UHGV virus genome: UHGV-1443331
DNA: 9,649 bases
Reading direction: 5' to 3' (one strand)
Origin: a virus
The notes below the pieces were generated by a model that was given only the letters and a program-made list of their open reading frames with translations, did not search any database and was not told the DNA's origin. The number at the start of each line of letters is the position of its first letter. The stretch's first letter is position 1. This document shows positions 8,554 to 9,533 of this stretch, in pieces. Position numbers and translations under genes: made by a program.

Positions 8554-8829
8554 ATGTTATCTTTTCAGGTTTTCCTTTTTAAAAAAGCATTAGAGGAAGA
8601 ATTAGATATAATCAAATGGCATCCAACAAATGAACAATTGGAGGAGATGTTCAATGAGATAAAAAAACTCAGTGGCAATGAAAGCATCACTGAAGTTGAA
8701 AATATCGTTCATCGAATTTACAAAAAACCGATTACAAGAATGATTTGTAATGGATTGAATACATCGAAAGCAAGTTCGCTATTGGCAAAAATTCAATCCC
8801 AGTCAAATAACACTCAACAAAAAAGATAG
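8554..8829 (+). CDS. Hypothetical small protein (91 aa)
   Basis: Good Shine-Dalgarno (AAGGAAAG) 5 nt before the ATG at 8554; tightly coupled to flanking ORFs; shares the C-terminal motif with the upstream ORF. Confidence 0.6.
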   Translation: MLSFQVFLFKKALEEELDIIKWHPTNEQLEEMFNEIKKLSGNESITEVENIVHRIYKKPITRMICNGLNTSKASSLLAKIQSQSNNTQQKR

Positions 8830-9533
8830 TGAAATCAGATATGGATGTTCACGGTATCATTGATAATCAAAAAAAAGAAATTGAGCGTTTATATGAAAAA
8901 TATACTGAGTCATTAGAGTGTTACCTATCTGGTAAATGTGATTTTGATACCGTGAATTCATGTGGAGACAGTTTTTTCGGCTATTTAGAACACTGCGCTG
9001 CACATAACAGAACAGTAGATGAATTAAATAATACTCAATGGAATCAATGGCTTGCAGAAACATGCATTGATGTTCTTCACCTTATCTTAGCTCATTACAA
9101 AAAATATAGAGAGGTAATGAATGATAATAGTATTAAACCAAGCTCCACTGCTTTTGCTTCAATGCAAAGGATAGTAAAAGCCCATGACAAACGTTCTGCA
9201 AAAGAAATAAGGAATCTTTTCGTTAATGAAGATATGCCAGTATATGGATTTGACAATAAAGGAAAAGAAAAATTGACAAAAGCACACGAGAGAATAGCGG
9301 CATTTAGCTTTGGCATTTTACTTGTTATTCTTTTTATAATAATCGCAATATTTATACCTAATCCAACGAACTTTCAATACACTTTCTTTCGAATAATTCT
9401 TTCAGCAGCAGTTGCTGGGGTAGTCTCATTTATACCCGGGTTTATAGAAGTCAAAATATCAAACTGGGTAAGAGCAGGTGGAGCATTAGCTGTATTTGTG
9501 ATTGTCTATTACGTGGCTCCCGCAGCATTATGA
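8829..9533 (+). CDS. Membrane-anchored protein (234 aa): Cys-rich soluble N-terminal domain plus C-terminal region with 2-3 predicted TM helices; function unknown
   Basis: Start is GTG at 8829 (overlapping the upstream TAG) or ATG at 8841. Hydrophobic stretches AAFSFGILLVILFIIIAIFI, FFRIILSAAVAGVVSFIPGFI and AGGALAVFVIVYYVAPAAL; N-terminal Cys cluster CYLSGKCDFDTVNSCGDSFFGYLEHC. Followed by a strong terminator. Confidence 0.7.
   Translation: MKSDMDVHGIIDNQKKEIERLYEKYTESLECYLSGKCDFDTVNSCGDSFFGYLEHCAAHNRTVDELNNTQWNQWLAETCIDVLHLILAHYKKYREVMNDNSIKPSSTAFASMQRIVKAHDKRSAKEIRNLFVNEDMPVYGFDNKGKEKLTKAHERIAAFSFGILLVILFIIIAIFIPNPTNFQYTFFRIILSAAVAGVVSFIPGFIEVKISNWVRAGGALAVFVIVYYVAPAAL

What the first reader, a model, noticed from the sequence alone, without database searches (positions are those of the whole stretch)
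8829..9533. 234-aa protein with Cys-rich soluble domain and C-terminal multi-pass membrane anchor as candidate effector
About 165 soluble residues with several Cys and His (CYLSGKCDFDTVNSCGDSFFGYLEHC, ETCIDVLH) are followed by two or three hydrophobic helices at the extreme C-terminus. This architecture is common among membrane-disrupting abortive-infection effectors and superinfection-exclusion proteins, but could equally be a sensor or anchor. It is the largest and last gene of the accessory operon.
Basis: inference. Interest (0 to 1): 0.75.

Follow-up and report, generated by a model that had tools for sequence, protein, structure and literature searches.

The report
Membrane protein of mobile three-gene cassette
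The gene is real and encodes the membrane-anchored last component of a conserved three-gene cassette of unknown function that rides in the cargo slots of filamentous and P2-like phages and sits next to known anti-phage systems, so it is a good candidate for a new phage-defence system, though nothing has been tested.

Summary
The ORF (8829-9533, GTG; more probably ATG 8841, 230 aa) is real. It is the last cargo gene of an E. coli dif-integrated CUS-1/YpfPhi-type filamentous prophage. The protein has a confidently modelled all-helical N-terminal domain, cytoplasmic by the positive-inside rule, followed by three TM helices.

"Cys-rich" is not a family trait: only C79 and H89 are conserved. No Pfam, NCBIfam, PADLOC, PDB or fold match explains the protein; its only family is phrog_5814 (unknown function).

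New here:
- The gene is never alone. 32 of 33 loci with the N-domain have one to four paralogous small genes (window: 8412-8552 and 8554-8829) directly upstream. These end in a shared motif, DG[IL]D[NT]S[DK]xxxLL.
- The small genes follow the N-domain even when the 3TM module is replaced by a TM-anchored lipase-like hydrolase. They are absent from all 7 3TM-only loci.
- The cassette occupies swappable cargo slots of two inovirus lineages, the Z/fun position of a P2-like phage, and plasmids. It also lies directly beside Gabija, Olokun and PifA-like genes.

Best reading (about 0.45): a mobile defence-type system in which small proteins dock on the N-domain and control a membrane-acting output. 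Function is inferred from context only.

The parts
8829..9533 (+). Gene C: 234-aa (GTG 8829) or 230-aa (ATG 8841) inner-membrane protein, the last gene of the cassette. Matches phrog_5814 and WP_000382466.1.
8844..9266 (+). N-domain (residues about 6-146). All-helical and predicted cytoplasmic. Invariant positions are W71, A76-E77-x-C79, L83, H89, P104, T107-A108, M112-Q113-R114 and L136-P137-x-Y139-G140-F141. In every relative it is followed by at least one TM helix.
   Evidence: Alignment A1. AF2 pLDDT above 90 over residues 10-140. 13/13 N-only relatives have a TM segment right after it.
9294..9530 (+). Conserved 3TM module (residues about 156-234) with motifs PNPTxFQYxxFRI, PGFIEVK and W(V/L)RAGGALAVF. 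It is an autonomous module that is also found alone or fused to other domains at either end.
8554..8829 (+). Small protein B (91 aa). It is a full-length member of the small-protein family, with W-x-P-T-x2-Q-L near the N-terminus and C-terminal GLNTSKASSLLAKIQ. Its stop overlaps the GTG of gene C.
   Evidence: (phrog_6502)
8412..8552 (+). Small protein A (46 aa). It is a degenerate paralogue that keeps only the C-terminal docking-type motif QDGLDTSKAKRLLEKAQ. PGAP calls it in strain F11.
   Evidence: small-protein HMM hit on the identical sequence in L043
8114..8296 (+). 60-aa gene at the position of the YpfPhi RstR-like repressor gene (YPO2273). It is divergent from gene II, and the cassette lies downstream on the same strand. 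It forms the conserved left border of the cargo slot.
   Evidence: phrog_2503; review; 100% identical in L045, which has different cargo
8542..8557 (+). Translation-initiation region of B (AAGGAAAGTAATATGT). It is identical to that of gene V at 6877-6892 on the minus strand.
   Evidence: (I8)
9551..9610 (.). Hairpin with 24-nt arms; the inner stem GGCCGCTGCG/CGCAGCGGCC is followed by TTTTC. It probably serves as the operon terminator and as part of the phage attachment region. It forms the conserved right border of the cargo slot.
   Evidence: I1; same sequence after the divergent cargo of L045
9600..9630 (.). Hybrid dif-like junction (TCAACATAA-CGAGTCGTACA-TTATGCGCACC). From 9616 onward the window repeats 1329-1362, meaning it runs into a second tandem prophage copy.
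   Evidence: (D4)

Best explanation
**What is shown.**
- Gene C is the membrane component of a mobile three-component cassette: small protein A, small protein B, and C.
- C is an inner-membrane protein. It has a roughly 150-residue helical N-domain, placed in the cytoplasm by prediction, and three TM helices with a predicted N-in/C-out topology.
- A and B are paralogues of one small-protein family whose best-conserved part is a roughly 20-residue C-terminal motif.
- These small genes always accompany the N-domain, whatever follows it.
- The cassette is carried in swappable cargo slots of phages and plasmids, and it lies beside known defence systems.

**What is inferred.**
- The cassette is an anti-phage or inter-element competition system that the prophage expresses in the lysogen, downstream of its repressor-position gene.
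- A and B, probably as a heterodimer, dock through their C-terminal helices on the cytoplasmic N-domain and keep C inactive, or report infection to it.
- On a trigger, the N-domain switches on a membrane-directed output. In this allele that output is the 3TM module (oligomerisation and loss of membrane integrity or potential). In relatives it is a TM-anchored lipase-like alpha/beta hydrolase.
- The result is exclusion of the incoming phage or abortive infection.
For: 1. **Cassette linkage.** A small-protein HMM run on six-frame translations hits directly upstream, on the same strand, in 32 of 33 loci that encode the N-domain. It hits in 0 of 7 loci that encode only the 3TM module.
2. **Coupling to the N-domain.** The small genes persist when the 3TM module is replaced. 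Examples are one TM plus a PGAP1/DUF676-like hydrolase (P0110, P0112; L037, L039) and TMs plus Lcl_C (P0122; L038).
3. **A-B interaction.** A and B are fused into one ORF in L033 (175 aa) and in P0232 (158 aa).
4. **Minimal element.** Degenerate copies keep only the C-terminal motif. This holds for E. coli, Proteus and Cedecea A, and for B in L030 and L037-L039.
5. **Mobile, defence-type contexts.**
   - The cassette lies between the tail-fibre-assembly gene and sheath gene FI of a P2-like phage. That is the Z/fun position (own knowledge of the P2 map), and the tail-gene region is described as a P2 defence hotspot (PMC13586616).
   - It lies right after a P2-like integrase in Microbulbifer.
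   - It occurs on plasmids.
   - It lies directly next to OloA/OloB (L018), GajA (L021) and a PifA-like KAP NTPase (L024), and near nSTAND3 in Proteus. gop-beta-cll genes occur in two loci.
6. **Slot swapping.**
   - A near-identical inovirus backbone (pII 98.9%, 60-aa gene 100%) carries a 37%-identical allele of C in the same slot (L045).
   - A second inovirus lineage carries a 59% allele (L044).
   - In strain F11 the sister tandem prophage has unrelated cargo there.
   - The backbone is in 54 complete E. coli genomes and the cassette is in 22.
7. **Operon layout.** A, B and C are tightly packed (1-nt spacer, then an overlapping stop/start). They lie downstream of the repressor-position gene and before a terminator-like hairpin.
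Against: - No experiment of any kind supports the function.
- No component matches any model in PADLOC v2, Pfam or NCBIfam.
- The defence association is a set of examples from 19-25 loci, some of them orthologous (the Pseudomonas pairs). No enrichment statistic was computed, and many neighbours are housekeeping genes.
- The 3TM module occurs alone and fused to SPOR, DUF4019, ankyrin or CHAT domains. One example sits right after glnS in Verrucomicrobiota. This fits a conserved anchor or oligomerisation module at least as well as a toxic pore.
- In the hydrolase variants the enzyme would sit in the periplasm, which is unusual for an abortive-infection effector.
- Small protein B alone gives a poor AF2 model (pLDDT 60), and no complex could be modelled. 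Docking of A and B on the N-domain is therefore inferred from co-occurrence only.
Confidence: 0.45

Rival explanations
1. Addiction (toxin-antitoxin-like) module. C is a membrane toxin and A/B are labile antidotes. The cassette would stabilise the easily lost filamentous replicon or prophage and other mobile elements, and any phage defence would be secondary.
For: - The layout is small proteins upstream of, and translationally coupled to, a membrane protein.
- It is carried on plasmids, prophages and islands.
- YpfPhi-type phages are unstable as episomes (PMC4266046).
- A VapBC-like PIN pair lies next to one cassette (L037), which is the kind of neighbourhood where TA modules accumulate.
Against: - Two paralogous small proteins, sometimes three or four, are unusual for an antitoxin.
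- Some are reduced to a 20-residue motif.
- The output domain is swapped for a periplasmic hydrolase or an Lcl_C domain, which is not a typical toxin arrangement.
- There is no match to any known TA family.
Confidence: 0.15
2. Constitutive superinfection exclusion at the inner membrane. C, with A and B, blocks DNA entry or assembly of incoming phages, especially other filamentous phages, without killing the cell. The 3TM module would act as an anchor that contacts a host or phage membrane component.
For: - The cassette is recurrent cargo of two inovirus lineages, in the lysogeny-side slot.
- A resident YpfPhi gives partial protection against superinfection by the same phage (PMC4266046).
- The Z/fun slot of P2 holds an exclusion gene in P2 itself (own knowledge).
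- The very high conservation of the 3TM module across unrelated fusions (55-60% identity) suggests a conserved membrane partner.
Against: - The YpfPhi of Y. pestis that shows this protection does not seem to carry the cassette: no Yersinia locus appeared in the species-representative scan.
- The cassette is common in bacteria with no inovirus nearby.
- The role of two cytoplasmic small proteins is left unexplained.
Confidence: 0.15
3. Transmembrane signalling module organised like an anti-sigma/sigma pair. The membrane-tethered N-domain sequesters the small proteins and releases them when the TM or periplasmic part senses an envelope signal. The small proteins would then be the actual output.
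For: - The gene order and coupling match such pairs: partner gene(s) upstream, then a membrane protein with a cytoplasmic helical N-domain, a TM segment and variable extracytoplasmic C-terminal domains (hydrolase, Lcl_C, others).
- The N-domain is always membrane-tethered (13/13).
Against: - The small proteins have no DNA-binding or sigma-factor signature.
- Several are reduced to the docking motif alone, so they can hardly be effectors.
- The N-domain lacks the HxxxCxxC zinc anti-sigma motif.
- This model does not explain the phage-slot and defence-island contexts.
Confidence: 0.1
4. The gene is an ordinary housekeeping membrane protein or an inovirus morphogenesis or regulatory protein, and the neighbouring small ORFs are unrelated.
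For: Only its location inside a filamentous prophage supports this.
Against: - A complete morphogenesis, replication and secretion gene set is on the other strand.
- The slot holds unrelated genes in sister prophages with the same backbone.
- The cassette is present in only 22 of 54 backbone-bearing genomes.
- The same cassette is in P2-like phages, plasmids and chromosomes of distant phyla.
Confidence: 0.03

Closest known systems
Lambda RexA/RexB (prophage exclusion system co-transcribed with the repressor gene)
   Same: - The genes are expressed from the lysogeny side of a prophage, downstream of the repressor-position gene.
- The system pairs a multi-pass inner-membrane protein with soluble partner(s).
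- The proposed output is loss of membrane potential.

This resemblance rests on layout and on my own knowledge of Rex.
   Different: - There is no sequence or fold similarity.
- RexB has four TM helices and no large cytoplasmic domain, and RexA is a single 279-aa protein.
- Here there are two tiny paralogous proteins and a 150-residue cytoplasmic domain fused to three TM helices.
Defence systems with swappable membrane-directed effectors (CBASS, Thoeris or retron TM effectors and phospholipases; P2/P4 hotspot systems such as the HAD-hydrolase plus TM protein and TIR plus TM proteins of Rousset et al. 2022, PMC9122126)
   Same: - A conserved regulatory part is combined with alternative outputs that act on the envelope. 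Here these are the 3TM module or a TM-anchored lipase-like alpha/beta hydrolase.
- It is located in phage cargo hotspots and defence islands.
- PMC9122126 notes that TM proteins in known systems are regarded as suicide effectors.
   Different: - There is no cyclase, TIR, reverse transcriptase or other known sensor or signal-generating enzyme.
- There is no match to any PADLOC v2 model, including the Rst systems.
- The output is fused to the regulatory domain, not encoded as a separate protein.
- The partners are roughly 85-residue proteins of a family with no known relative.
Accessory cargo of filamentous phages: YPO2271/YPO2272 of YpfPhi, orf1/orf1a of CUS-1, ctxAB of CTXphi, KKP and PfiTA of Pf phages
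   Same: - It has the same kind of position in the same phage family, at the attachment-site-adjacent end next to the repressor-position gene. That end differs between YpfPhi and CUS-1 (PMC4266046).
- Pf cargo modules have been shown to give phage defence and to control lysogeny (PMC11341870 and PMC12328805, abstracts).
   Different: - It is not homologous to the Y. pestis cargo as far as tested (no Yersinia locus).
- It could not be matched to CUS-1 orf1/orf1a, because that paper is not held.
- It has no kinase, phosphatase or toxin domains.
Membrane-anchored anti-sigma factors with their sigma partners
   Same: The partner gene lies upstream and is coupled. The protein has a cytoplasmic helical N-domain, a TM segment and a variable extracytoplasmic C-terminus.
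   Different: The partners are not sigma factors. There is no zinc anti-sigma motif and no structural match.

Membership tests
phrog_5814 (phage protein family, function unknown) | Full-length match to the family profile | tested here: met
   E = 5.7e-144. Residues 5-234 match profile positions 1-230 of 230.
N-domain / small-protein cassette (family defined here) | An N-domain with W-x4-AE-x-C, MQR and LP-x-YGF motifs, followed by a TM segment | tested here: met
   The positions are invariant in 27 homologues. A TM segment follows the N-domain in all N-only relatives (13/13).
N-domain / small-protein cassette (family defined here) | At least one small-protein gene with the C-terminal G-x-D-[NT]-S-[DK]-x3-LL motif directly upstream on the same strand | tested here: met
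   In the window these are 8412-8552 and 8554-8829. The pattern holds in 32 of 33 loci overall.
Known anti-phage defence systems (PADLOC-DB v2.0.0) | Significant match of any cassette protein to a system model | tested here: not met
   The only hit was Csx27 at E = 0.0057 on the TM region. There was nothing for A, B or the 60-aa protein.
Anti-phage defence system (functional class) | Protection against phage infection when expressed | not testable with these tools
   Only context is available: the P2-like Z/fun slot, inovirus slot swapping, and neighbours GajA, OloAB and PifA-like.
SLATT and other described two- to four-TM defence effectors | Match to Pfam, NCBIfam or PADLOC models of these TM effector domains | tested here: not met
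   There was no Pfam or NCBIfam hit for the query. SLATT_1 gave E = 0.47 on relative P0057, which is far below the cut-off.
Inovirus morphogenesis, replication or secretion proteins (pI-pIX) | Homology to, or positional equivalence with, a core gene | tested here: not met
   The core set is complete on the minus strand. The slot content is variable among identical backbones.
Cys-rich or zinc-binding domain | Conserved set of Cys/His ligands | tested here: not met
   Only C79 and H89 are conserved in 27/27 homologues, and the other four Cys match in 1-8/27. H89 is Tyr or Phe in some distant relatives: P0122 and P0175 and the first cassette copy of L033.
Zinc anti-sigma factors | An HxxxCxxC motif, with a sigma-70-family partner encoded upstream | tested here: not met
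   The motif is absent. The small proteins have no sigma or HTH family match above noise.
YpfPhi cargo YPO2271/YPO2272 | Presence of a homologue in Yersinia pestis | tested here: not met
   The scan of species-representative genomes returned 24 loci, none from Yersinia. This was a pattern-based scan, so it is a strong but not absolute negative.

The most novel reading that the evidence does not exclude
The A-B-C cassette is a previously undescribed, widespread family of anti-phage or inter-element immune systems: 2806 cluster representatives in many phyla for the membrane component and its two modules, of which the N-domain members are the ones that carry the cassette. In it, tiny proteins, sometimes little more than a 20-residue C-terminal helix, act as ligands of a membrane-tethered cytoplasmic domain that controls interchangeable envelope-directed outputs. 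It would be the functional cargo that virulence-associated dif-integrating filamentous phages of E. coli exchange among themselves and with P2-like phages.
Probability: 0.4. Interest if true: 0.75.

Novelty: new variant of a known kind. Interest (0 to 1): 0.6.

Why it matters
**Open question on phage cargo.** The function of the terminal cargo ORFs of the CUS-1/YpfPhi phage family has been an explicit open question since these phages were linked to high-virulence E. coli K1 and pandemic Y. pestis (PMC4266046). This work shows three things about one such cargo set:
- It is not a set of orphan ORFs but a conserved, mobile three-gene unit.
- Different inovirus lineages and P2-like phages carry it in their exchangeable slots.
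- It keeps company with Gabija, Olokun and PifA-like genes.

**A testable hypothesis.** The cassette is small (about 1.2 kb), comes from E. coli, and can be cloned and challenged directly.

**If it is a defence system.** It would add a family with no relative among described systems. It would also have an unusual logic: paralogous mini-proteins docking on a membrane-tethered domain, with a 3TM module and a lipase-like hydrolase as alternative outputs.

**The 3TM module.** Independently of the above, the 3TM module is a very conserved, widely fused membrane module without any annotation.

Tried and rejected
**Curated libraries: nothing beyond PHROG families of unknown function.**
- Pfam, NCBIfam and PADLOC on all cassette proteins gave nothing.
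- PHROGs gave only families of unknown function.

**Structure and sequence searches: nothing specific.**
- Profile searches against PDB sequences found nothing significant for C or the small proteins.
- Foldseek against PDB and BFVD gave no hit below E = 0.7.
- The afdb50 library was not available.
- The AF2 model of small protein B had pLDDT 60, too poor for a fold search.

**Sequence collections and literature.**
- Megablast of the cargo region against the phage collection found no match. tblastn later found a P2-like phage.
- Gonzalez et al. 2002 (the CUS-1 paper) is not held, so the cassette could not be equated with CUS-1 orf1/orf1a.
- YPO2271/2272 identity is rejected, because no Yersinia locus was found.
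- Literature and accession searches found no description: WP_ numbers, inovirus cargo and defence, the DefensePredictor supplements, and the new P4/P2 systems of PMC13586616.

**Ideas rejected.**
- Cys-rich metal domain.
- Catalytic Cys-His pair: H89 is Tyr or Phe in distant members.
- Anti-sigma factor.
- Morphogenesis protein.

**Other.**
- The alternative cargo of strain F11 had no Pfam hits.
- The promoter/terminator scan gave no more sites than shuffled sequence. Co-transcription with the 60-aa gene therefore remains an inference from spacing.
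Full report
**1. Setting**

The window is an E. coli chromosome segment.
- Its left 1320 bases are 100% identical to several complete E. coli genomes.
- It holds a dif-integrated filamentous prophage of the CUS-1/YpfPhi type.

The minus strand carries the whole core gene set:

| Gene | Coordinates |
|---|---|
| replication gene II | 6892-7986 |
| ssDNA-binding gene V | 6563-6880 |
| major coat | 6117-6359 |
| attachment protein with Gly/Ser repeats | 4820-6214 |
| pVI-like | 4479-4823 |
| Zot/pI | 3384-4478 |
| secretin | 2111-3469 |

Attachment-site features:
- An intact dif lies at 1316-1343.
- A hybrid dif-like junction lies at 9600-9630.
- From 9616 the window repeats 1329-1362, so it runs into a second tandem copy, exactly like the inter-copy junction of strain F11.

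The review of YpfPhi (PMC4266046) describes this organisation. It states that the ORFs at both ends have no known function, that the attachment-site-adjacent pair differs between YpfPhi and CUS-1, and that their function is an open question.

**2. The observation**

- ORF 8829-9533 (+) exists. It has a GTG start that overlaps the upstream stop by one base.
- PGAP and the PHROG profile start at ATG 8841, giving 230 aa. Either start is possible, and the ATG is the more probable.
- The quoted Cys/His-containing peptides are there.
- Three hydrophobic helices occupy the last 80 or so residues.
- The distribution of Lys and Arg (3.6 before TM1, 0.15 in loop 1, 2.15 in loop 2) gives an N-in/C-out topology.
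- The gene is the last and largest of a tightly packed + strand series:
  - the 60-aa gene at 8114-8296;
  - the 46-aa ORF at 8412-8552;
  - the 91-aa ORF at 8554-8829;
  - this gene.
- The series ends before a strong hairpin at 9551-9610.
- The reading frame is certainly coding. Homologues of 33-76% identity exist in many phyla, and an exhaustive profile search finds 2806 cluster representatives.

**3. What the protein is made of**

Alignment of 27 full-length homologues and local domain HMMs show two independent modules.

*The N-domain (about residues 6-146).*
- It is all-helical and modelled with pLDDT above 90.
- Its invariant positions are W71, A76-E77-x-C79, L83, H89, P104, T107-A108, M112-Q113-R114 and L136-P137-x-Y139-G140-F141.
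- Of the five Cys and seven His, only C79 and H89 are conserved. H89 becomes Tyr or Phe in distant members. The 'Cys-rich' label is therefore a property of this allele only, and a metal site or Cys-His catalytic pair is unlikely.

*The C-terminal 3TM module.*
- Its motifs are PNPTxFQYxxFRI, PGFIEVK and W(L/V)RAGGALAVF.
- It is 55-60% identical in proteins whose soluble parts are unrelated.
- It can sit at either end of a protein.
- It occurs alone or with DUF4019, ankyrin, CHAT or SPOR domains.

*No database explains either module.*
- Pfam, NCBIfam and PADLOC gave nothing.
- The PDB sequence profile search gave nothing.
- Foldseek against PDB and viral models gave nothing below E = 0.7.
- The only family is phrog_5814, of unknown function.

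**4. The gene is part of a conserved cassette**

*First evidence from three genera.* In Proteus, Aeromonas and Microbulbifer the homologue is preceded by small ORFs whose products end in the same motif as the two small ORFs of the window.

*The small-protein family.* Thirty-two such proteins align over their whole length as one family with two paralogous types:
- type A: ...EPTxxQ...CPSAGxYxYxG[IL]DNSDLNTLLALA;
- type B: ...WxP[ST]xxQL...CPxT...EG[IV]DNSDLxTLLALA.

The enterobacterial versions read GL[DN]TSKAxxLLxK. A profile search finds 273 more members, all small and unannotated.

*Test of the linkage.* An HMM of the family was run on six-frame translations of every locus fetched.
- It hits directly upstream, on the same strand, in 32 of 33 loci that encode the N-domain.
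- It hits nowhere in the seven loci that encode only the 3TM module.

*The small genes follow the N-domain.* They stay with it when the 3TM module is replaced by one TM helix plus a PGAP1/DUF676-like alpha/beta hydrolase, or by TM helices plus an Lcl_C domain.

*Further properties.*
- Every N-domain protein lacking the 3TM module still has a TM segment right after the domain (13/13).
- A and B are fused into one ORF in two cases.
- In several loci one of the two small proteins is reduced to a charged, low-complexity stretch plus the roughly 20-residue C-terminal motif. The 46-aa product of the window is one of these.

*Inference.* The C-terminal motif is a docking helix for the membrane-tethered N-domain, A and B work as a pair, and the part after the N-domain is an exchangeable output. 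This is inference from co-occurrence. No complex could be modelled, and B alone folds poorly in AF2 (pLDDT 60).

**5. Where the cassette lives**

*In E. coli.*
- The phage backbone (gene II) is in 54 of 5426 complete genomes.
- The cassette is in 22 of them, always 100% identical and often in tandem arrays.
- In strain F11 the neighbouring tandem prophage has three unrelated genes in the same slot.

*In IMG/VR.*
- A contig with a 98-100% identical backbone carries a different membrane ORF plus a B/C pair only 40% and 37% identical. These lie between the same 60-aa gene and the same hairpin (L045).
- A different inovirus (pI 68%, coat 42%) carries an A-B-A-B-C version (L044).
- A third, non-inovirus viral contig carries another version (L046).

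*In other mobile elements.*
- A P2-like phage (NC_070905.1) has a B-C pair between the tail-fibre-assembly gene and sheath gene FI.
  - That is the position of Z/fun in P2 (own knowledge).
  - The tail-gene region is reported as a P2 defence hotspot (PMC13586616).
- In Microbulbifer the cassette follows a P2-like integrase. That is another reported P2 defence location.
- Homologues are on plasmids of Cronobacter, Cedecea, Pseudoalteromonas, Pseudomonas and Salmonella.

*In chromosomes.* Among 19 chromosomal loci from species-representative genomes:
- the cassette is directly followed by OloA/OloB in Paraburkholderia and by GajA in Pseudomonas;
- it is directly preceded by a PifA-like KAP NTPase in another Pseudomonas;
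- gop-beta-cll genes, integrases and transposases occur in others;
- Proteus has nSTAND3 and a PD-(D/E)xK-like gene nearby.

These are examples, some of them orthologous, not an enrichment statistic, and many other neighbours are housekeeping genes.

**6. Mechanism**

*Shown:*
- the architecture;
- the predicted topology;
- the cassette linkage and its coupling to the N-domain;
- the exchangeability of the output;
- mobility and slot swapping.

*Inferred:*
- the cassette is a defence or inter-element competition system expressed from the lysogeny side of the prophage;
- A and B dock on the cytoplasmic N-domain and hold or trigger it;
- the output acts on the envelope.

The swap between a TM module and a lipase-like hydrolase recalls the alternative membrane effectors of known systems (PMC9122126).

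*The weakest step.* The role of the 3TM module is the least secure part. Its occurrence alone and in fusions with SPOR, DUF4019 or ankyrin domains, sometimes in conserved chromosomal positions, is equally compatible with a conserved anchor or oligomerisation unit. I put the defence-type cassette model at about 0.45, and a pore-like role of the 3TM module at about 0.3.

*Rivals:*

| Rival | Confidence |
|---|---|
| addiction module | 0.15 |
| non-lethal superinfection exclusion | 0.15 |
| anti-sigma-like signalling pair | 0.10 |
| ordinary phage or housekeeping protein | 0.03 |

**7. Comparison with what is known**

- By layout the closest analogue is lambda RexAB.
- By logic the closest are defence systems with interchangeable membrane effectors and the small systems of P2/P4 hotspots.
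- By location the closest are the cargo modules of filamentous phages: ctxAB, KKP, PfiTA and YPO2271/2272.

None is homologous.
- No PADLOC v2 model matches.
- No Yersinia homologue was found.
- None of the newly named P4/P2 systems described in PMC13586616 resembles it.
- The protein accessions appear in no paper searched, nor in the DefensePredictor supplements.
- I could not read the CUS-1 paper, so whether this is CUS-1 orf1/orf1a is open.

**8. Verdict**

It is a candidate effector, but as one part of a three-component cassette, and without a Cys-rich domain.
- The gene itself is an annotated hypothetical protein in a known phage family. The cassette, its domain logic and its distribution appear to be undescribed.
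- Interest is 0.6: a well-defined, directly testable candidate system that also bears on an explicitly open question about virulence-associated filamentous phages, but with function still unproven.

Noticed in passing
window 6877-6892 (-) and 8542-8557 (+): The 16 bases AAGGAAAGTAATATGT, which span the Shine-Dalgarno sequence through the ATG, are identical for gene V (ssDNA-binding protein) and small protein B. Chance expectation is 0.01 per window. The identity stops at both edges of the 16-mer. The 16-mer is absent from cassettes outside this phage. It could mean shared translational control or a recombination scar.
   Followed up: partly
window 1316-1343, 9600-9630, 9616-9649: An intact dif lies at the left prophage border and a hybrid dif-like site at the right. 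The last 34 bases of the window repeat 1329-1362, so the window ends inside a second tandem prophage copy, as in strain F11.
   Followed up: yes
L001 2972-4390 (E. coli F11): The sister tandem prophage carries three unrelated genes (140, 155 and 123 aa; no Pfam hits) in the slot between the 60-aa gene and the attachment hairpin. One array therefore holds two cargo types.
   Followed up: partly
L045 5064-6850 (IMG/VR contig): A near-identical phage backbone carries a roughly 140-aa multi-TM ORF plus a divergent B/C pair (40% and 37% identity). The C protein there has an extra hydrophobic segment.
   Followed up: partly
L033 2621-6591 (Pseudomonas inefficax): Two cassettes lie in tandem. The first has three small genes, an N-domain/3TM gene and a 365-aa protein with an HExxH motif. 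The second has A and B fused into one 175-aa ORF.
   Followed up: partly
window 1382-1615 (-) and 1733-2041 (-): Two further cargo-type ORFs lie at the dif-proximal end, with matches to phrog_5435 and phrog_4115 (both of unknown function). The 77-aa product has two CxxC pairs (CDRC, CQHC) like a zinc ribbon, with a weak zf-FPG_IleRS hit at E = 0.004.
   Followed up: no
window 5328-5462: There are fifteen-base tandem repeats encoding the [10 protein letters not shown] linker of the attachment protein. The same gene is annotated as frameshifted in one F11 copy.
   Followed up: no
window 457-1128: The LysR-family ORF next to dif is only 223 aa and ends in an unrelated tail, so it may be truncated. 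It is annotated as a LysR regulator in matching genomes.
   Followed up: no
L010-L012 8001-8927 (Verrucomicrobiota): A protein with an N-terminal 3TM module and an unknown C-terminal domain starts 7 bases after the glutaminyl-tRNA synthetase gene in three independent assemblies. This is a conserved chromosomal context for the module, not a mobile-element one.
   Followed up: no
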